Below the pieces are notes generated by a model. It did no database searches. It was not told the DNA's origin and saw nothing but the letters and a program-made list of their open reading frames with translations. A stretch of DNA of 36,127 nucleotides from a virus (lineage: Duplodnaviria > Heunggongvirae > Uroviricota > Caudoviricetes), in IMG/VR virus record IMGVR_UViG_2627854066_000004, positions 1 through 36,127 of that record. One strand, 5' to 3'. The translations under genes and the position numbers were made by a program. Below, in pieces: positions 4,188 to 17,116 of the stretch (position 1 is its first letter; every line of letters begins with the position of its first letter).

Positions 4188-4307
4188 GTAATCATCATGC
4201 ACACACAAAAAAACCGCTTGCCATGCCGCAATCAGTCAGGTTACATTTCTGCTGCACCTCATAAAACGGGTGCCGGGATTCTCAACCTGCTGACAAACGA
4301 AGCGCAC

Positions 4308-4328
4308 AACCGCGCCAGCGGTTTTTTT
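4308..4328 (+). terminator. rho-independent terminator
   Basis: AACCGC-GCCA-GCGGTT stem-loop followed by TTTTTTT. Confidence 0.55.
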
Positions 4329-4340
4329 GTGCGTACTGTA

Positions 4341-4448
4341 TTGCCACGTCTTTTTCGCACACGAATTATGGTGGGGCGTACGGGGCCGACTTCGGTCGGG
4401 CCGGTTTCTTCGTTTGCCGGTGTTGAGAACCCCGTACGTCTCGCCACC
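4341..4448 (+). promoter_or_regulatory. promoter-like element plus structured leader or small RNA upstream of the 4511 ORF
   Basis: TTGCCA-N17-AATTAT at 4341-4369, then a long hairpin at 4371-4447: CGTACGGGG (4377-4385) pairs with CCCCGTACG (4430-4438) and encloses a UUCG-capped stem CCGAC-TTCG-GTCGG (4386-4399). Confidence 0.3.
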
Positions 4449-4510
4449 CCGAGATTCTCAACTCTGGTTGGTGAGTATCCAAAAACTCACAAACGAAGAG
4501 GCCAAACACC

Positions 4511-8052: not shown

Positions 8053-8089
8053 AACAGGCAAAAACGGGATTTCAGAATCCCGTAAACGA
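7977..8089. repeat. two 39-bp imperfect direct repeats, each with a GGGATT-N4-AATCCC palindrome
   Basis: Copies at 7977-8015 and 8051-8089 are 31/39 identical, straddle the gene A stop and lie just upstream of the StbA-like gene. Confidence 0.5.
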
Positions 8090-8117
8090 TTAATTAATCA
8101 ACATAAGGAAAAGCGAC

Positions 8118-9077
8118 ATGAAAATTTGTATCGACGACGGCTCCACCAACATCAAGCTGGCATGGACTGAGAACGGCGAACGCCGCAACGCCATCAGCCC
8201 GAACAGCTTCAAGTCGGAATGGTCTGCGCCGTTCGGTGGCTCGCAGCCTGCGAACTACATGCTTGATGGCGTGCGCTATGGTTTTGATCCGGTCAGCGAT
8301 CGCTTTGTCCAGACGACCGACACGCAATACCAGTACAGCGATGTGAATGTCATTGCCATTCATCACGCGCTGGTCAAATCAGGCATCACGCCACAGGAGG
8401 TGGATGTGGTTGTCACCCTGCCACTGAGCGAGTATTTCGACACAAACGCACAGCCGGACATGGCCAACATCAACCGCAAAAAAGCGAACGTTATGCGCCC
8501 GGTGGAGTACCAGAACGGCGAAGCATTCACTATCCGTAACGTGCGGGTTATGCCTGAATCCATTCCGGCTGGCTTTAAGGCACTGGCTGACATGAGTCCG
8601 TTTGAATCCCTGCTGATTGTAGATTTGGGCGGAACCACGCTGGATGTGGCAAAGGTTCAGGGGCAACTGGCAGGTATCAGCCAGGTGTTTTGCGATCCAC
8701 ACGTAGGCGTTTCTCTGATGGCCGATGCCGTACTGTCGGTGATGGCCACTAACGGTATGCGCACCAGTCACCACATCGCCAATACCATTATCGAACATCG
8801 CCATAATGAAGCCTGGCTGCGCCAGCACATCCACAATGACGCGCATTACGCCAGCCTGATGGAGGTTATTCGTGAAAAGGAAGAAACACTGAAACAACGC
8901 GTGATCCGCGCGCTGGCGGGTTTTTCGGGTTACGGGCGGGTGATGGTTGTCGGTGGAGGGGCGGAGATTGTGGCACCCGCTATCCGCGAAGCCTGCGGAG
9001 TTAATGCGACTTTCATCGCGGACGGGGTGCCACAGTTTGCTCTGGTTAATGGGCTGTACGCAATGGACAAGGAGTAA
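8118..9077 (+). CDS. actin-like segregation ATPase, StbA/ParM family
   Basis: 319 aa; N-terminus MKICIDDGSTNIKLAW and the LIVDLGGTTLDVA phosphate-binding motif match the StbA/ParM family of plasmid R100/R1. Confidence 0.8.
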   Translation: MKICIDDGSTNIKLAWTENGERRNAISPNSFKSEWSAPFGGSQPANYMLDGVRYGFDPVSDRFVQTTDTQYQYSDVNVIAIHHALVKSGITPQEVDVVVTLPLSEYFDTNAQPDMANINRKKANVMRPVEYQNGEAFTIRNVRVMPESIPAGFKALADMSPFESLLIVDLGGTTLDVAKVQGQLAGISQVFCDPHVGVSLMADAVLSVMATNGMRTSHHIANTIIEHRHNEAWLRQHIHNDAHYASLMEVIREKEETLKQRVIRALAGFSGYGRVMVVGGGAEIVAPAIREACGVNATFIADGVPQFALVNGLYAMDKE

Positions 9078-9081
9078 ACCA

Positions 9082-9393
9082 ATGACGACACCAACCAGAC
9101 GGATAAGTTTCTATCTGAAGCCCGCCGCCGTCAAGAACGAAGGCGAAGCATGCGCCTGGCTGGACAGCCTTACACCAGAAGCCCGCAAAAGCGGCCAACG
9201 CGTGGCTTTTCTGGCCGGGCTGGCACTTCTGAAAATGAATCCGGCAGAGGCTTACCGACTGGCTGCATGGGCTGACGATGAGGCGTTATCGGTGACACAA
9301 ACCAGGACAGAACGCCCCGCGTCACAGCCAGTATCAACCGCACAGATAACCAGTCAGATGGCCAGAAATATCCGGGCGTTATTTCCCGAATAA
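9082..9393 (+). CDS. StbB/ParR-like small DNA-binding partner (putative ribbon-helix-helix)
   Basis: 104 aa directly downstream of the StbA-like gene, AAGGAG RBS overlapping its 3' end; N-terminal beta-strand-like RRISFYLKP and C-terminal NIRALFPE resemble StbB as I recall it. Confidence 0.5.
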   Translation: MTTPTRRISFYLKPAAVKNEGEACAWLDSLTPEARKSGQRVAFLAGLALLKMNPAEAYRLAAWADDEALSVTQTRTERPASQPVSTAQITSQMARNIRALFPE

Positions 9394-9857: not shown

Positions 9858-10382
9858 ATGAAAAAATACGAATACATGCTAATGAAAGAAGCACTGCGGG
9901 CTGGTCTGGCTCCCTGTCCTGTATCCGTAGAAGCTGTTGTTGGGAACACGATTTTCCGAACGCTGCGAAATCGCGTATCCGTGAAGATGATTCACCAACC
10001 ACCCAAATCTACCAGCATGATCTATCTGCCGCTGCCCGAGGCTATCAAACTTATGCGTTCGCTGAAATTTGCGATTTGGATGCAGACACAACTCAACAAA
10101 GCGGTGCAAAACACCTTCGTTAAGAAACTGATGCCGGAGCTTGCTGCCAGATGTGCAAAATGTACCAGACCCGCACTTCAATTTGATCTGTCATTGATTC
10201 AACAAGCTACGGAGGCAGAACTGTACCGCCTGTCACCTCTCCATGATGTTCACACGGAAGCCTCAGAAATGTTCCGGCTCATGTTTCAATTTAATTTTGC
10301 CGTTCGACGCACACGCGTTCAGGTCAATCGCATGATGCAGGCGCAGGAAGAGCTGACGCAACACAAAGGAGGCAACCAGTGA
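9858..10382 (+). CDS. hypothetical protein
   Basis: 174 aa from ATG 9858 with a GAGGA RBS; no domain recognised. Confidence 0.55.
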   Translation: MKKYEYMLMKEALRAGLAPCPVSVEAVVGNTIFRTLRNRVSVKMIHQPPKSTSMIYLPLPEAIKLMRSLKFAIWMQTQLNKAVQNTFVKKLMPELAARCAKCTRPALQFDLSLIQQATEAELYRLSPLHDVHTEASEMFRLMFQFNFAVRRTRVQVNRMMQAQEELTQHKGGNQ

Positions 10383-10903
10383 GCAAGATTGACTATCAGG
10401 CATTACGCGAACGCTATTCACCTGCGCCAGTACCGAAATGCCCTATTTGCGGCGAGGAAATGTCAATTCAGCGAATATCTGGAGCACAGGTTGTTTATGC
10501 CTGCTCCGGTTATGGTGATGATGGAGATTTCAAAATTGGTCGAACTCTTGCCGACGAACATTATGAAAAATCGCGCGTAACAGTGTTGGATGTCGGGGAT
10601 CCTGAAGTATTGGCGCTACTTGATTGGCTGGAAACTAAAGACAACCGAATCGCTGAACTGGAAAAAATCGCCACTGACTATGCACTTAAATTCCAGAAAG
10701 CACAGGACGCATTAAAGCATGCCGCTTTGCTGCATAGCCGGACGGCGCAACAAACAAATAATTTTGCAGTATCGCTTCCGGACATAAGCGAATATTTCAT
10801 TAATGACGTATTTCAGCCCTTGCGATACGAGCGGGATGTTGAAAGAGCCATCATAAAGGCTGGCGGAAAAGCATTGTGGCAGGAGAAACACGACGACAGA
10901 TAA
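10379..10903 (+). CDS. hypothetical protein with N-terminal zinc-ribbon-like motif
   Basis: 174 aa; GTG start overlaps the upstream stop (GTGA) with an AAAGGAGG RBS; CPICGEEM...YACSGYG. Confidence 0.55.
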   Translation: MSKIDYQALRERYSPAPVPKCPICGEEMSIQRISGAQVVYACSGYGDDGDFKIGRTLADEHYEKSRVTVLDVGDPEVLALLDWLETKDNRIAELEKIATDYALKFQKAQDALKHAALLHSRTAQQTNNFAVSLPDISEYFINDVFQPLRYERDVERAIIKAGGKALWQEKHDDR

Positions 10904-10928
10904 AAATAACACCTGATCTCCCTCAAAC

Positions 10929-10954
10929 CAGGGCGATAATCGCGCATCGCCCTG
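10929..10954 (+). terminator. stem-loop after the three-gene unit
   Basis: CAGGGCGAT-AATCGCGC-ATCGCCCTG, a 9-bp stem; no clean T-tract immediately after. Confidence 0.35.
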
Positions 10955-10955
10955 C

Positions 10956-10982
10956 TGCACAATAGTGCACAAATTTGCACAA
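10956..10982. repeat. three TGCACAA repeats with 10-bp phasing
   Basis: TGCACAA at 10956, 10966 and 10976, followed by a T7 run. Confidence 0.5.
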
Positions 10983-11406
10983 TTTTTTTGAACGACTTTT
11001 TGCCCTTCCGGCCCGCGTGGCGGCTGGATCCGTCAAGGATCCGTGCGTGCACAAAAAAACGCGTTTTTTCTGCGCGCAGGTGACGGGGGAACAGCCCGCG
11101 TTTCAGGGGGTAAATAGCATCCCCTGAACGATGTCGCAGCAACACAACAGAATGGCTGTATTTCTCACGCTGAGCGTGAAAAAGACGTGAGGGCTTTTGA
11201 TTTGATGGGGTGGCAGATAAGGCCGTCAAAATCGCACTGAGGCGGCGAGAACATGCAGTCAGCGCGATGGGATTGCGTAAGAGCCTGACCGTCGATGATG
11301 GCAATAAGCTGGAAGACGTCGTGAAATTATCTGATTGATACAGGAGCTGGAGAGTCGGGGCATAAATTTTTTATGCCCCGGCGAAGCAGCAGACAAGCGA
11401 AGCGCG

Positions 11407-12453
11407 TCAGGATGTGGGCTGGGTGTCCAGCAGTGCGTAAGGGTTAAAGCGGATCACCTCTTCGCCAAGCCAGTCATTGATGTGCTTCATAGCCTCCATG
11501 ACGGGCATCAGCTCGTTAATTGCGTAAACCCGCGCGGCCTTCTCCACATCACCAAACGCACTTTTTTCGCCCGGCATTGCCCCCATCAGTTGCGGCGGAA
11601 CGCGGTGCGCAGCCAGCACATCATCACGGGATGCCGCCTTAACATTCATGAACTCATCCTTTGCGGTGATCTGCTGGAACGGCAAAATTTGCACCCCCTC
11701 TTTGCCCCCGTTGGGCGCGTGGATGAGCACGTTTTTAAACGCACCACCACCACGCGCACCCTGTAACGTTTCTTTCAGGGAGTCCATGCTTTCGCGGTTT
11801 ACCTGCGCTGCACCGATGTAGATGATGCACCCGGCGTGGGATCCGTTGTCGTAATACAGTTTTCTGAACATGTCCGCCGAATGAGACAGGCTGGCCGAGA
11901 GTAATGCGCCAAGATATTCCGGCATGCCGTAAATTTCCTGGTTAATGTCCGGATTCATCAGGTGGCACACTTTGCCAGGGCAAAACTGAAACGCGTCCTT
12001 GCCATCCTGCACATACCACCATGATTCAAGATCGCTTCCGCGTCGCATGTATTTCGCCAGTGCGTGCCGTAATTTAAGTGGTTCGCCGAGCATATTGCTC
12101 CGAAGCTCAAGGAATGCGTTACCGAACACAAACCAGTCCAGCGCCAGCGCCGAGAAATCCTGCCGGGAAAGCAGCGGGTGCGGGATGTAGCAACCGAGCA
12201 ATACATTGCGCTTAAAGTAAAGCGCAGACTGATGCCAGGACGTTTGCCGGGCGGCTCTTGCCAGACCGTACCAGTCCACCGGGGTTTCATACCACCGCCC
12301 GTTATCAGCACAGTACATATTGTCCAGCAGGTCATGCCCGGTCAGGCGATAAGGACCATCAAATGTGAATGCACTGAGCGATGATTCTTTCCTGAGCGCA
12401 TCAGCGAGATCAATGCGTGAACTCATGCGCACTTTTTTATTTTTTCTGCTCAT
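11407..12453 (-). CDS. Q: portal vertex protein, P2 gpQ family
   Basis: 348 aa, size and position as P2 Q, leftward and adjacent to terminase P. Confidence 0.85.
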   Translation of the reverse strand: MSRKNKKVRMSSRIDLADALRKESSLSAFTFDGPYRLTGHDLLDNMYCADNGRWYETPVDWYGLARAARQTSWHQSALYFKRNVLLGCYIPHPLLSRQDFSALALDWFVFGNAFLELRSNMLGEPLKLRHALAKYMRRGSDLESWWYVQDGKDAFQFCPGKVCHLMNPDINQEIYGMPEYLGALLSASLSHSADMFRKLYYDNGSHAGCIIYIGAAQVNRESMDSLKETLQGARGGGAFKNVLIHAPNGGKEGVQILPFQQITAKDEFMNVKAASRDDVLAAHRVPPQLMGAMPGEKSAFGDVEKAARVYAINELMPVMEAMKHINDWLGEEVIRFNPYALLDTQPTS

Positions 12454-14203
12454 CAGAACTCCATAACCGTGAAACGCTCGTTTTCTCCTTCGCCGCCAAT
12501 TGGTTCGTTAATGACAGCAAGCATGGTTGCCCACGCAAGGTCGCCGTGGCTGATCCCCCTCGCGCGGTCCGTTTCGTAAGTGATAAAGCCGCCCGGTGTT
12601 TTCACCTTACGCACGGCGTTAAAGGCCGCGACCAGCTCGCGTTCGGCGCGATCGTATTCCCACCGTCCGGCACGCATTATTTGCAGCATTTTCAGTACCA
12701 GCGACCGTTTGGATGACAGCGTGAAGGTGTACGGAATAGCAGCAGGGAAAAACCGCTTCACTATCTGATAAACAGCCTCCCCGTTCCCGCCCGTCACATC
12801 AATGCCGATGTGTTCCACGTTGTAGCGACACGTGAACTCTTCAATGACTCTGGCCTGTTCTTCAAACTCCAGCCCCTGAACGCGTCGCGTCTCCACCGTT
12901 CGAAAACGGCCACCAGGAACAGCCGGAGGAACCACCACGGACACAGCGCCGCTGTCGCCGTTGCCACTGCTGCCGTTTGCGTCATACCCAATCCATACCG
13001 GACGATTCCCCATCGGGCGGGGAGCAAAAGGTTTCCAGTCTTTCCAGTCGTCGTATCCGTCAACACCGCAGCCAATCAGGATATTCAGGTTAAATGCCGA
13101 TTCCCCTTCGCGGACAAACTCACACATATAGAGATTGCGGAACTCGTCTTCGGTGTTTTCATCACGAATTTCGTCAATATCGGTGTGTTTCCAGCCGTGA
13201 TTAACCACATCTTCCAGCGTGACAATTTGCCGCCACGTCCGGTCAGGGCAGATAAGCCCGTTATGCAGCGTTTTCCAGTCCACAGAAAAACGCTGGCGTT
13301 TATGCGTGGCCTTTTTCTCGTTCCAGCGGTCGCCGTTCCAGTAGGCGTATGCCTCGTGCGTTTCGGTGGATGGCGTGGAGAAGTAGGTGCGCCGCAGTCC
13401 GCTGAGGGTTGCCATAGCGCCAGCCACCTTGCGCAGTTCAGCAAAGCGGCTGACCCAGAAAAATTCATCAAAATAAAAATTGCCCGTGTAGGACTGTGCC
13501 GTCGCAGCAGAAGTACCAAGAAAATGCAGCTCTGCACCGTTGGAGAGGATGATTTTATCGCCCCCTTTCAGCTCCACATCAACTTCAGATGCAGCCTTCT
13601 GAATAATGCTTTTAAACTGGAACGCCTGACGACGCGACGCAGACAAAAAAATCTGGTTACGCTGGTAAGGTTGTGCCACATCGTCACGCAGTGCCATCAG
13701 CAGTGCTTCCTGTGCAAAATACCAGGTCGCCCCAATCTGTCGGGATTTCAGGATCATCCTGTTACGTATCCCGGCTTCCCTGCAAAGGGTCAGAGAGTCA
13801 AACCAGCCCCGCTGATGCCACTCCAGCCTGCTGATGATTTTTTCCCGCAGTGCGGCAATCTGTTCCGGCGTGAAATGATTTTTGAGTTTTTCGCCCGGCT
13901 TTTCTTTCCTGTGGCCGTCGCATCCGGCTGGCCATCATGCAGTTTTTTAAGCTGCCGGGTCAGCAGGTCTATTTCCTTGAAGTCACCACCTGTTTTACTC
14001 TGTTTTTCAGTAAGCTGGATGAGGCGCGCATCGATGGACTGCGTGACACGCTGCACGGGTGGTGTTTCATCCCACTGGTCGCGTTTTTTCCACGCATAAA
14101 TCGTGTTCGGGTTTATTCCCATCAGACGTGATATTTCTGCGGGCGGATAACCCTGCCAGTAAAGTTGCCGCGCACGCTGGCGCACAAAAGCGTCCTGAAT
14201 CAT
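12453..14203 (-). pseudogene. P: terminase large subunit (P2 gpP family), interrupted by an apparent -1 frameshift
   Basis: The N-terminal piece (ORF 13790-14203) and the C-terminal piece (ORF 12453-13757, whose frame stays open upstream) are in different frames. The switch lies in a T-run at about 13899-13909: GGAAAG where GGAAAAG would give a continuous ...ATATGKEKPGEKLKNHF... Confidence 0.75.
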
Positions 14204-16315: not shown

Positions 16316-17116
16316 ATGATTACTCCTGCACAGCAACACTGGCAGAACGTGATGGCACAGCGCGCAGGCCGGGCGAATGAAGGCGTGGACCACGCCGCGC
16401 GTACCGCGCATGAAGAGGTGCTGTATCGTCTGCGTCTGGCACAGGCCCGGCTTAAGGGCGTACAGGCCAGAAGCGCGAAAGCCGCCATCAAAAAAGAGTT
16501 GTTGCCGGATTTTTCCGGCTGGATTGAGGGAACGCTGGAGGCTGACGGCGGGCAGCAGGATGAAGTGATTGCCACGCTGATGGTGTGGGCGATTGACTGC
16601 GGCGATCTTCCGCTGGCGTTGCGTATTGGTGCGTATGTGGTCCGTCATAACCTCATTATGCCGGATAACTTTGGCCGTACTGCTGCCACAGTGCTGACCG
16701 AAGAAATCTGCAACCCGGTACTGACGCAGGCCGGGACGGATGCCGACGCGGATTTGTCCGCCTTTATCGAACCACTGGATACCCTCCGGGAGATTGTCAC
16801 CGACCAGGACATGCCGGACGAAGTGCGCGCCAAATTATGCAAGGCGTGCGCCTTTGCCCGCCGTGGCCTGAGCGATGCGGACAGCATGGCACTGTCACTG
16901 AAGCTGCTGCGCGAAGCAATGCACCTGAACCCGAACGCAGGTGTGAAACGCGAGATTGCAACCCTTTCCCGCGCCCTGAAAAAAGCCGATTCCGCAGCCG
17001 CACCAGAAGACGCCAGCGCACAGCAGGCGCAGGACGAAAGCAGCAAAAGTAAAAAGACAACGCGGAAGCCTGCAACACGAAAAACCACCGCGACGCAGAA
17101 GGCGAAGCGCGGTTAA
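16316..17116 (+). CDS. M: terminase small (endonuclease) subunit, P2 gpM family
   Basis: 266 aa with a lysine/arginine-rich C-terminal tail. Confidence 0.8.
   Translation: MITPAQQHWQNVMAQRAGRANEGVDHAARTAHEEVLYRLRLAQARLKGVQARSAKAAIKKELLPDFSGWIEGTLEADGGQQDEVIATLMVWAIDCGDLPLALRIGAYVVRHNLIMPDNFGRTAATVLTEEICNPVLTQAGTDADADLSAFIEPLDTLREIVTDQDMPDEVRAKLCKACAFARRGLSDADSMALSLKLLREAMHLNPNAGVKREIATLSRALKKADSAAAPEDASAQQAQDESSKSKKTTRKPATRKTTATQKAKRG

What the first reader, a model, noticed from the sequence alone, without database searches (positions are those of the whole stretch)
10904..11406. Palindrome-rich non-coding region between hotspot and portal: phased TGCACAA triplet and candidate cos/packaging site
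This 500-bp non-coding stretch contains three TGCACAA repeats at exactly 10-bp spacing (10956-10982), a perfect AAAAAACGCGTTTTTT palindrome (11054-11069), a GGATCCGT direct repeat, a TCAGGGG...CCCCTGA hairpin (11102-11128) and a strong hairpin next to the portal stop (11356-11380). In P2 the cohesive end site lies between the accessory genes and Q, so the prophage cos should be here, but I could not match the P2 19-nt cos sequence from memory. The phased repeats look like a binding array for a regulator or packaging protein.
Basis: seen in the sequence. Interest (0 to 1): 0.45.

Follow-up and report, generated by a model that had tools for sequence, protein, structure and literature searches.

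The report
Packaging (cos) site of P88-like prophage
This non-coding stretch is the DNA-packaging (cos) site of a P2-family prophage, and its three phased TGCACAA repeats belong to a four-box array kept at fixed spacing across P2-family phages and their satellites, so it is a real feature of a known kind.

Summary
The window is a P88-like (Xuanwuvirus, P2-family) prophage of E. coli.

The region between the cargo hotspot and the portal gene is homologous to the mapped cos regions of P2, 186, P4 and phiCTX.

- **Repeat array:** the three TGCACAA boxes (10956, 10966, 10976) plus a fourth (11048) form an array. Its spacing to the fourth box (-92, -82, -72, 0) is kept in 35-40 of 42 distinct relatives.
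- **Left boundary:** box 1 is the exact left edge of the conserved block. Everything left of it is swappable cargo.
- **P2 19-mer homologue:** It is GGTGACGGGGGAACAGCCC at 11079-11097, 13 of 19 identical to P2, 31 nt after box 4, and linked to P2 through intermediate forms.
- **AT palindrome:** it sits in the linker between box 4 and the 19-mer. Only the linker length is conserved.
- **Satellites:** capsid-encoding satellites share only this roughly 165-bp block with P88-like prophages, at identical spacing.

Not shown here: the physical DNA ends, or which terminase subunit binds the boxes.

Verdict: a new member of a known kind, a sequence variant of the P2 cos. Interest is moderate.

The parts
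10956..10982 (+). Boxes R1, R2 and R3: TGCACAA x3 at 10-bp spacing. They start 92, 82 and 72 bp upstream of box R4, and 123, 113 and 103 bp upstream of the predicted cohesive-end 19-mer. R1 is the left edge of the conserved block.
   Evidence: Searches show the boxes. GCA cores sit at -92, -82 and -72 in 35, 36 and 40 of 42 distinct relatives, including P2, 186 and P4; conservation jumps from about 40% to at least 90% at the first base of R1, with 34 unrelated left-flank families against one family from R1 onward; the two satellites have identical spacing, and 0 of 20,000 shuffles gave a phased triplet.
10983..10989 (+). T7 run directly after R3 (TTTTTTTGA). It may be an intrinsic bend.
   Evidence: Present in most P88-type relatives, but not in P2, 186 or P4. 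Any role is inferred.
10990..11047 (+). Spacer between R3 and R4. Its length is fixed and its sequence is lineage-specific. It holds GCCCTTCCGGCCC, a weak dyad CCGC-GTG-GCGG (11013-11023) and the GGATCCGT direct repeat (11026 and 11037).
   Evidence: the R3-to-R4 start-to-start distance is 72 bp in 40 of 42 sequences, although the P2 spacer shares no sequence with it; a dyad centred about 31 bp before R4 is common (strong in P4 and the Brenneria type), but it is weak here and absent in P2; the GGATCCGT repeat is absent from satellite L265.
11048..11054 (+). Box R4 (TGCACAA, followed by an A-run). It is the counterpart of the TGCATTAAAA that opens the published 55-bp P2/P4 cos core.
   Evidence: 40 of 42 sequences. 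The 55-bp core is cited in PMC9594776, PMC5694545 and PMC3931495.
11054..11069 (.). AAAAAACGCGTTTTTT palindrome inside the 31-nt linker that runs from R4 to the 19-mer. It is not predicted to be the cut site.
   Evidence: 45 different linkers occur among 152 distinct P88-type sequences, nearly all 31 nt long, and the perfect palindrome is in only 52 of 152. P2-type relatives have a 29-nt linker of unrelated sequence.
11070..11079 (.). CTGCGCGCAG palindrome, the GCGCGCA box immediately left of the 19-mer.
   Evidence: this box precedes the 19-mer in both P88-type relatives and P2-type intermediates (AGCGCGCA|GGCGAGGCGGGGGAGCAAG|CGCGCGC).
11079..11097 (+). Predicted cohesive-end sequence (cosN): GGTGACGGGGGAACAGCCC, the positional and sequence homologue of the P2 19-nt cohesive end GGCGAGGCGGGGAAAGCAC. 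The exact nick positions are uncertain by a few nucleotides.
   Evidence: It is 13 of 19 identical to P2 without gaps. It occupies the same slot as the P2-type 19-mer in intermediates from Brenneria, Kosakonia, Klebsiella, Yokenella, Morganella and Pantoea. The P2 and 186 records annotate the mapped cos at that slot. This exact 19-mer was the commonest variant, in 118 of 152 distinct P88-type sequences, but the set was selected on its first 11 nt, so only positions 12-19 are informative. Satellite L265 has GGTGACGGGGGAACAGCAC.
11098..11128 (+). Right flank of the cut site, including the hairpin TTCAGGGG...CCCCTGAA (11102-11128). The block shared by helper and satellite ends inside it, at about 11115-11120.
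   Evidence: Searches show the hairpin; the satellite match ends after GGGGGTAAAT and lacks the right arm, so the hairpin as such is probably dispensable for packaging.
11129..11355 (.). Non-coding DNA between cos and the portal terminator. It is conserved only among close P88-like relatives. The ORF at 11210-11338 is probably not a gene.
   Evidence: no codon-position bias; some relatives carry 600-960 nt here instead of 340, so this is a second insertion site.
11356..11380 (-). Strong hairpin 26 nt past the portal stop codon. It is the positional counterpart of the P2 tQ and 186 tW terminators of the terminase-portal operon.
   Evidence: -24 kcal/mol on the minus strand. P2 and 186 annotate terminators at the same place. 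No U-run follows the stem, so terminator function is inferred.
11407..12453 (-). Portal gene (homologue of P2 gpQ), which bounds the region on the right.
   Evidence: Pfam Phage_portal. RefSeq annotation.
12453..14203 (-). Large terminase (homologue of P2 gpP), with an N-terminal helix-turn-helix domain. It is the presumed nicking enzyme and one candidate reader of the boxes. It is split by a 1-nt deletion in this window.
   Evidence: Pfam Terminase_5 (HTH), Terminase_6N and Terminase_6C fall on two separate ORFs. There is a T5 run here against T6 in strain ES4 at about 13886.
16316..17116 (+). Small terminase (homologue of P2 gpM), the other candidate reader of the boxes.
   Evidence: Pfam Phage_term_smal, E = 5.6e-37.

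Best explanation
Window 10956 to about 11120 is the cos (cohesive-end packaging) site of a P88-like, P2-family prophage.

**Proposed mechanism.** The phage terminase is the small subunit gpM plus the large subunit gpP, which carries an N-terminal helix-turn-helix domain. It is proposed to load on four TGCACAA boxes that lie on one face of the helix:
- R1-R3 are 10 bp apart.
- R4 starts 72 bp after R3.

The terminase would then nick both strands about three helical turns further on, at GGTGACGGGGGAACAGCCC (11079-11097). This would give roughly 19-nt 5' cohesive ends, as in P2.

**Surrounding elements.** The cargo hotspot ends exactly at R1, because everything from R1 rightward is needed in cis. 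The hairpin at 11356-11380 ends the terminase-portal operon.

**Shown here:**
- the features themselves;
- their exact conservation of spacing;
- homology to mapped cos sites;
- sharing with satellites.

**Inferred:**
- which protein binds the boxes;
- the exact nick positions;
- the overhang length and polarity.
For: 1. **Identity of the element.** The region matches Escherichia phage P88 and other Xuanwuvirus phages at 93-96% identity. It lies between cargo genes and the portal gene, with P2-type terminase genes alongside.
2. **Same architecture in phages with mapped cos** (P2, 186, P4; records start at an annotated cos). They have three TGCAT boxes, then a fourth TGCAT 72 bp after the third, then 29 nt, then the 19-nt cohesive end.
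3. **Unbiased portal-anchored set.** These 39 loci come from many genera. Stacked without gaps, GCA cores fall at -92, -82, -72 and 0 in 35, 36, 40 and 40 of 42 distinct sequences. The only other offset reaching 50% is +27 (21 of 42), which is the GCGCGCA box.
4. **Intermediates.** They read TGCACAAAAAGAGGCATGTTTAGCGCGCA|GGCGAGGCGGGGGAGCAAG|CGCGCGC. This places the P2-type 19-mer in the slot that holds GGTGACGGGGGAACAGCCC in the window. The linker is 29 nt in all P2-type sequences scored and 31 nt in all P88-type sequences where box 4 could be scored.
5. **phiCTX.** This Pseudomonas phage has a mapped 21-nt cos, the same 29-nt linker, and boxes at -81 and -71.
6. **Boundary at R1.** There are 34 unrelated left flanks against one conserved family from R1 onward. 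Nearly all listed matches, from 1149 of 5426 E. coli genomes, start at R1.
7. **Satellites.** They lack terminase and portal genes yet carry R1-R4, the 31-nt linker and the 19-mer at identical spacing. They share only about 165 bp with P88-like prophages. This parallels P2 and P4, whose only shared DNA is cos (PMC9122126).
Against: - **No physical ends were mapped.** Scans of IMG/VR and metagenome contigs gave no pile-up of contig ends.
- **Conflicting record start.** The one linear record that breaks inside this region (LR595891, P88_4B11) starts at window 11001, not 11079. Its authors say they set nt 1 'relative to reference genomes' after trimming end repeats (PMC6969025). Their P2-type records start at P2 nt 1, nt 20 or 21 nt before nt 1. 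This start is therefore weak evidence.
- **Modest identity.** The 19-mer is only 13 of 19 identical to P2.
- **Overhang length unsettled.** A 2-nt shift relative to P2-type sequences leaves it at 17-19 nt.
- **Cut geometry can vary.** A Serratia P2-like phage was reported with a 12-nt overhang, GCATTGCGCGCC (PMC7556043).
- **No protein-DNA data.** I found none for P2-family terminase on these boxes.
- **Clade confound.** The P88-type cos marks a single clade in the TerL, TerS and portal trees. Terminase-cos co-evolution therefore cannot be separated from common descent.
- **Possibly defective prophage.** This copy has a frameshifted large terminase gene, so it may not package at all.
Confidence: 0.72

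Rival explanations
1. cos is in this region, but the cut site is elsewhere. It could be at the AT palindrome or the CTGCGCGCAG palindrome (11054-11079), or near 11001 where the P88_4B11 record begins.
For: The LR595891 record starts at window 11001. The AT palindrome and CTGCGCGCAG have the two-fold symmetry typical of nicking sites such as lambda cosN. A Serratia P2-like phage was reported to have an overhang containing TGCGCGC.
Against: The AT palindrome is perfect in only 52 of 152 relatives and is replaced by unrelated sequence in other genera. In P4, 186 and the intermediates, the segment homologous to 11001-11047 lies well upstream of the mapped or P2-type 19-mer. The record start was chosen by the authors rather than mapped.
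Confidence: 0.12
2. The TGCACAA boxes are not terminase sites. Instead they bind a host or phage regulator, or act as a terminator or insulator that stops transcription from the cargo genes running across cos.
For: R2-R3 plus the T7 run scores as terminator-like. In P4 the first two boxes form the arms of a good hairpin followed by Ts. In P2 the boxes overlap the old promoter region.
Against: The R2-R3 hairpin is weak (-6.1 kcal/mol, z -0.7). Each cargo brings its own hairpin just left of R1. A terminator does not explain the exactly conserved 72-bp distance to R4 or the 29/31-nt distance to the 19-mer across P2, 186, P4 and P88-type phages, with phiCTX off by 1 bp. It also does not explain retention of the boxes in satellites with different neighbouring genes.
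Confidence: 0.12
3. The phased repeats are the parC-type centromere for the ParM/ParR partition genes encoded 1.6-2.8 kb upstream (8118-9393).
For: ParM and a ParR-like Plasmid_stab_B protein are encoded in the window. Centromeres of this type are arrays of phased direct repeats (textbook knowledge of plasmid R1 parC).
Against: The same array, at the same spacing, occurs where no parM is annotated or seen in the stretches examined: the cos-flanking regions of P2 and 186, a Novemvirus locus and the satellites. By general knowledge, P2, 186, P4 and phiCTX encode no ParMR. The array is locked in register with the cos core, not with parM.
Confidence: 0.02
4. The repeats and palindromes are chance features of an AT/GC-patchy intergenic region.
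For: The window-wide count of TGCACAA is not above expectation.
Against: 0 of 20,000 shuffles reproduced a phased triplet. The spacing is conserved in 35-40 of 42 distinct relatives.
Confidence: 0.01

Closest known systems
cos site of phages P2 and 186 and satellite P4 (19-nt 5' cohesive ends; 55-bp core of Ziermann & Calendar 1990, as cited in PMC9594776, PMC5694545 and PMC3931495)
   Same: - It has the same genomic position, between the accessory-gene hotspot and the portal stop, and the same orientation.
- Three boxes sit 92, 82 and 72 bp before a fourth box, followed by a fixed linker and a G-rich 19-mer.
- It is linked to gpP- and gpM-type terminase genes.
- It is shared with satellites.
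   Different: - The boxes read TGCACAA, not TGCAT.
- The linker is 31 nt, not 29.
- The 19-mer is GGTGACGGGGGAACAGCCC, 13 of 19 identical to P2.
- The GCGCGC box lies to the left of the 19-mer, and only GCG remains to the right.
- The linker carries an AT palindrome where P2 has a GC hairpin.
- About 310 nt, rather than about 170, separate the 19-mer from the portal stop.
cos region of Pseudomonas phage phiCTX (21-nt cohesive end; the GenBank record notes R3-R6 repeats around cos)
   Same: It has a box with an A-run 29 nt before GGCGTGGCGGGG, and two further boxes 81 and 71 bp upstream of it. Repeats around cos were already noted by the annotators.
   Different: The boxes read YGCAGGG or YGCAGAA. 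The spacing is off by 1 bp. The cohesive end is P2-type. I did not read the original paper, so I do not know how far its R repeats coincide with these boxes.
Phage lambda cos (cosQ, cosN and cosB with R3-R2-R1 sites for the small terminase, plus an IHF bend)
   Same: This is a functional analogy only. Both have a nicking site flanked by an array of short repeats for terminase, with bent or spacer DNA between them.
   Different: There is no sequence homology. The P2-family array lies on the side of cosN away from the terminase and portal genes. P2 is reported to package from monomeric circles (textbook knowledge, not tested here). Binding by the small terminase is shown for lambda but not for this family.

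Membership tests
P2-family (Peduoviridae) cos site | Lies between the variable accessory-gene region and the 3' end of the portal gene, next to gpP- and gpM-type terminase genes. | tested here: met
   The layout matches P2 and 186.
P2-family (Peduoviridae) cos site | G-rich 19-nt sequence related to GGCG(A/T)GGCGGGGAAAGCA(C/T) at the cut site. | tested here: met
   GGTGACGGGGGAACAGCCC at 11079-11097 is 13 of 19 identical to P2. It occupies the slot of GGCGAGGCGGGGGAGCAAG in the intermediates. It is a divergent variant.
P2-family (Peduoviridae) cos site | 55-bp core: a TGCAT box with an A-run, a 24-nt linker, the 19-mer, then YGCGCGC. | tested here: inconclusive
   The box, A-run, linker and 19-mer are present. 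However, the distance from the start of the box to the 19-mer is 31 nt instead of 29. The right-hand GCGCGC is reduced to GCG, and a GCGCGCA box lies on the left. The core is recognisable but altered.
P2-family (Peduoviridae) cos site | Virion DNA ends with 5'-protruding complementary single strands at this sequence. | not testable with these tools
   No read data were available. Contig-end surveys gave nothing. The start of record LR595891 is not a mapped end.
P2-family (Peduoviridae) cos site | The same cis element is carried by satellites that depend on the helper's terminase. | tested here: met
   Satellites L265 and L266 carry R1-R4, the linker and the 19-mer at identical spacing. The shared block is about 165 bp, and the satellite locus is in 56 of 5426 E. 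coli genomes. Mobilisation itself was not tested.
ParMRC parC centromere | An iteron array that co-occurs with parM/parR, usually just upstream of parM. | tested here: not met
   The array occurs where no parM is annotated or seen in the stretches examined: the cos-flanking regions of P2 and 186, a Novemvirus locus and the satellites. That P2, 186, P4 and phiCTX lack ParMR altogether is general knowledge. Here it lies 1.6 kb downstream of parR.
Rho-independent terminator (for boxes R2-R3 plus the T-run) | A stable GC-rich stem followed by a U-run. | tested here: not met
   The stem has 5 bp, at -6.1 kcal/mol and z -0.73, and 41 of 200 shuffles fold as well. Only the loose consensus scan flags it.

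The most novel reading that the evidence does not exclude
The four phased TGCAY boxes, with their invariant spacing, may be the so far uncharacterised terminase-loading array (a cosB equivalent) of the whole P2 family and its satellites. The spacing is 10 + 10 + 72 bp between boxes, then 29 or 31 nt to the cut site. The P88 clade may have evolved a new cohesive-end and linker specificity. That would define a separate helper-satellite packaging compatibility group, which includes a capsid-encoding satellite family sharing only this 165-bp block with its helpers.
Probability: 0.4. Interest if true: 0.55.

Novelty: new member of a known kind. Interest (0 to 1): 0.35.

Why it matters
P88-like prophages sit in about a fifth of complete E. 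coli genomes (1149 of 5426). I found no description of their packaging site in the papers I could read.

**Practical uses of fixing the cos**
- It gives a start point for genome records.
- It allows cosmid and transducing-particle design.
- It explains why the anti-phage cargo hotspot ends exactly at box R1.

**Testable model.** The exactly conserved box spacing from P2 to P88-type phages (phiCTX off by 1 bp) gives a concrete model for how P2-family terminase recognises DNA. To my knowledge this has not been worked out biochemically.

**Helper-satellite matching.** Satellites share the same 165 bp. This suggests that cos type decides which helper can mobilise which satellite.

Tried and rejected
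1. **Wrong first alignment.** I first aligned the TGCGCGC that follows the P2 cohesive end with TGCGCGC at window 11071. That made the AT palindrome the cos. I rejected this when the portal-anchored loci showed two GCGCGC boxes flanking a P2-type 19-mer.
2. **LR595891 start as a mapped end.** I rejected this after reading the authors' methods and seeing that their P2-type records start at nt 1, nt 20 or 21 nt before nt 1.
3. **Contig-end pile-ups.** I looked for them in IMG/VR and in metagenomes and found none. Phage records of the Klebsiella and Enterobacter relatives are in prophage order.
4. **RNA or protein-coding explanations.** There is no Rfam hit in the region, no promoter-like site, and no codon bias in ORF 11210-11338.
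5. **Terminase-cos co-variation.** The P88-type cos is a single clade in the TerL, TerS and portal trees alike, so this says nothing beyond common descent.
6. **Conserved dyad in the R3-R4 spacer.** Dyad centres cluster about 31 bp before R4. However, the stems are short, only 13% are individually above shuffles, the dyad is weak in the window and it is absent in P2. I report it only as a tendency.
7. **Literature.** I could not obtain Ziermann & Calendar 1990 or the phiCTX genome paper. Whether they already describe the upstream boxes is therefore unknown to me.

Full report
**What is in the sequence**

Window 10904-11406 lies between an Ead/Ea22-like cargo gene (10379-10903, + strand) and the portal gene (11407-12453, - strand). 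The prophage is inserted next to pheA. The 901 bp around the finding are 100% identical to E. coli ES4.
- TGCACAA at 10956, 10966 and 10976;
- the perfect palindrome AAAAAACGCGTTTTTT (11054-11069);
- GGATCCGT at 11026 and 11037;
- the hairpins at 11102-11128 and 11356-11380.

A fourth TGCACAA sits at 11048. The 7-mer is not enriched in the window as a whole (8 copies against 9.8 expected). Even so, no phased exact triplet arose in 20,000 dinucleotide-preserving shuffles of the region. The stretch has no annotated gene in ES4. The small ORF at 11210-11338 shows no codon-position bias in 99 distinct relatives. There is no Rfam match and no promoter-like site.

**What the element is**

The region matches Escherichia phage P88 and other Xuanwuvirus phages (P2 family, Peduoviridae) at 93-96% identity. 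In nearly every hit the similarity begins at window 10955/10956, the first base of the first repeat. The flanking genes are P2-type:
- the portal;
- a large terminase with the gpP-type N-terminal helix-turn-helix domain;
- a gpM-type small terminase.

The block is present in 1149 of 5426 complete E. coli genomes.

**Comparison with mapped cos sites**

The P2, 186 and P4 records start at their annotated 19-nt cohesive ends. When these records are joined end to end, all three show the same order:
1. three TGCAT boxes (spaced 12-13 and then 10 bp);
2. a fourth TGCAT followed by an A-run, starting exactly 72 bp after the third;
3. 29 nt from the start of that box to the cut site;
4. the cohesive end GGCG(A/T)GGCGGGGAAAGCA(C/T);
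5. YGCGCGC.

The stretch from the fourth box to GCGCGC is 55 bp. This corresponds to the published 55-bp P2/P4 core (PMC9594776, PMC5694545 and PMC3931495).

**An unbiased family sample**

My first collection of relatives was found with the 19-mer TGCGCGCAGGTGACGGGGG, so it was biased toward that motif. I therefore retrieved 39 usable loci through the portal protein alone, from GTDB genomes of many Enterobacterales genera. I stacked their cos regions without gaps on box 4, together with the window, P2, 186 and P4.

GCA cores occupy offsets -92, -82, -72 and 0 in 35, 36, 40 and 40 of 42 distinct sequences. The only other offset reaching 50% is +27 (21 of 42), which is the GCGCGCA box. The spacer between boxes 3 and 4 shares no sequence between P2 and the P88 type, yet its length is the same.

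Two cos types appear:

| Type | Linker from box 4 to the 19-mer | 19-mer | Followed by |
|---|---|---|---|
| P2-type | 29 nt (all scored) | GGCGAGGCGGGG... | CGCGCGC |
| P88-type | 31 nt (all where box 4 could be scored) | GGTGACGGGGG... | variable |

The P2-type group includes P2, 186, P4 and prophages of Brenneria, Kosakonia, Klebsiella, Yokenella, Morganella and Pantoea.

The intermediates read TGCACAAAAAGAGGCATGTTTAGCGCGCA|GGCGAGGCGGGGGAGCAAG|CGCGCGC. They have P88-type boxes and a left-hand GCGCGCA box, but a P2-type 19-mer. This places the P2 19-mer in the slot that holds GGTGACGGGGGAACAGCCC (11079-11097) in the window, which is 13 of 19 identical to P2.

Phage phiCTX of Pseudomonas has a mapped 21-nt cos. 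It shows the same 29-nt linker and two boxes 81 and 71 bp upstream of the fourth. Its GenBank record already notes repeats around cos.

- **AT palindrome:** it lies in the linker between box 4 and the 19-mer. Among 152 distinct P88-type sequences there are 45 different linkers, nearly all 31 nt long, and the perfect palindrome occurs in only 52. The length is constrained, not the palindrome.
- **GGATCCGT repeat:** it is specific to P88 proper.
- **CTGCGCGCAG (11070-11079):** this is the conserved box immediately left of the predicted cut.
- **Hairpin 11356-11380:** it is strong and sits where P2 and 186 annotate the terminator of the terminase-portal operon.

**Boundary with the cargo hotspot**

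Among 171 loci carrying the array, the 40 nt left of box 1 fall into 34 unrelated families. From box 1 onward there is a single family, and per-column conservation jumps from about 40% to at least 90% at the first base of box 1. This fits the report that P2-family and P4-family hotspots abut cos (PMC9122126). It also indicates that box 1 is the first base that cannot be replaced.

**Satellites**

Two weak E. coli matches turned out to be satellites. Their gene content is as follows:
- an integrase;
- a primase;
- an Icd-like gene;
- an Ogr/Delta zinc-finger gene;
- a P2-family major capsid gene;
- no terminase, portal or tail genes.

One of them lies between gcd and hpt. Both carry boxes 1-3, box 4, a 31-nt linker and a P88-type or related 19-mer (GGTGACGGGGGAACAGCAC; GGCGACGAGGGGAGGGCGC). 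The offsets are identical to the window: 123, 113, 103 and 31 nt before the 19-mer.

The satellite locus is in 56 of 5426 E. coli genomes. The only part it shares with the roughly 420 other matching genomes, which match at the identity seen for P88-like prophages, is about 165 bp. That block corresponds to window 10955 to about 11120. This mirrors P2 and P4. It is the best available evidence that the whole block, boxes included, is the packaging signal. The shared block ends inside the 11102-11128 hairpin, so that hairpin is probably not required.

**Mechanism**

The boxes are phased at whole helical turns: 10, 10 and 72 bp between them, then 29 or 31 bp to the cut. They would therefore lie on one face of the DNA. 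This arrangement is typical of small-terminase recognition arrays.

I therefore propose that terminase assembles on R1-R4, with the spacer looped or wrapped, and nicks at the 19-mer. This would give roughly 19-nt 5' cohesive ends. The candidate readers are gpM and the helix-turn-helix domain of gpP.

None of the following is shown here:
- binding of either protein to the boxes;
- the exact nick positions;
- the overhang length, which is 17-19 nt given a 2-nt shift relative to the P2 type.

**Evidence against, and limits**

- **No physical ends could be mapped**.
- **Record LR595891 starts at window 11001**. Its authors set nt 1 by reference after trimming. Their P2-type records start at P2 nt 1, nt 20 or 21 nt before nt 1.
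- **A Serratia P2-like phage was reported with a different, 12-nt overhang**.
- **The P88-type cos is one clade** in the TerL, TerS and portal trees, so co-evolution cannot be separated from descent.
- **This prophage has a 1-nt deletion in a T-run** that splits its large terminase gene.

**Rivals**

- **parC centromere for the ParM/ParR genes in the window:** excluded, because the array occurs where no parM is annotated or seen (the cos-flanking regions of P2 and 186, a Novemvirus locus and the satellites). By general knowledge, P2, 186, P4 and phiCTX encode no ParMR.
- **Terminator role for R2-R3:** not supported by stability (-6.1 kcal/mol, z -0.7).
- **Chance:** excluded.

**Verdict**

This is a member of the known P2-family cos class with a divergent cohesive-end sequence and linker. 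The conserved phased box array and the satellites that share it are the parts a specialist might find worth following up.

Noticed in passing
window 13880-13890, within 12453-14203 (- strand): The large terminase gene is split into two ORFs, 13790-14203 and 12453-13757. The cause is a 1-nt difference in a homopolymer (T5 here, T6 in strain ES4, which has one 583-aa gene). This is either a real inactivating frameshift or a sequencing error. If real, this prophage cannot package its own DNA.
   Followed up: partly
L265 1-8700 and L267 (E. coli mip270_22, between gcd and hpt); L266 (E. coli 2013C-3033): These are satellite-like islands. They carry integrase(s), a toprim primase, an Icd-like gene, an Ogr/Delta zinc-finger gene and a P2-family major capsid gene (423 aa, with an extra N-terminal part of about 130 aa). 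They have no terminase, portal or tail genes. They hold a full P88-type cos block. The locus is in 56 of 5426 complete E. coli genomes. I did not check whether this satellite type has been described.
   Followed up: partly
L108 and L059 (IMG/VR), around the TGCGCGCAGGTGACGGGGG motif: This variant cos has a deletion fusing box 2 to box 4, which removes box 3 and the whole spacer. It sits next to a portal gene only 30% identical to the window's. It may be a recombinant or a defective element.
   Followed up: no
window 4254-4328 and 4364-4451 (+): Rfam matches above gathering score to the isrK Hfq-binding RNA (62 bits) and to the C4 antisense RNA (79 bits). They lie in the early region of the prophage.
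   Followed up: no
window 8053-8117 and 8118-9393: The prophage encodes ParM and a ParR-like Plasmid_stab_B protein. The 65-bp gap before parM holds a perfect inverted repeat, ACGGGATT-TCAG-AATCCCGT, but no obvious iteron array. I did not locate the centromere of this partition system.
   Followed up: no
relatives L040, L121, L095, L110, L049, L112 and others, between the cos 19-mer and the portal stop: Some P88-like relatives have 600-960 nt between cos and the portal gene instead of about 340 nt. This marks a second insertion site on the portal side of cos.
   Followed up: no
L236 (NZ_JBQPOM010000071.1, labelled Vagococcus sp. WN89Y): A genome labelled as a Firmicute carries a P88-like portal (99% identical) and cos region on a 226-kb contig. 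This looks like enterobacterial contamination or mislabelling of that assembly.
   Followed up: no
window 10929-10954: A 9-bp perfect hairpin (CAGGGCGAT...ATCGCCCTG, -15.6 kcal/mol, z -4.0) ends one base before box R1. It belongs to the variable cargo. Other cargo families bring their own, different hairpins to the same spot.
   Followed up: partly
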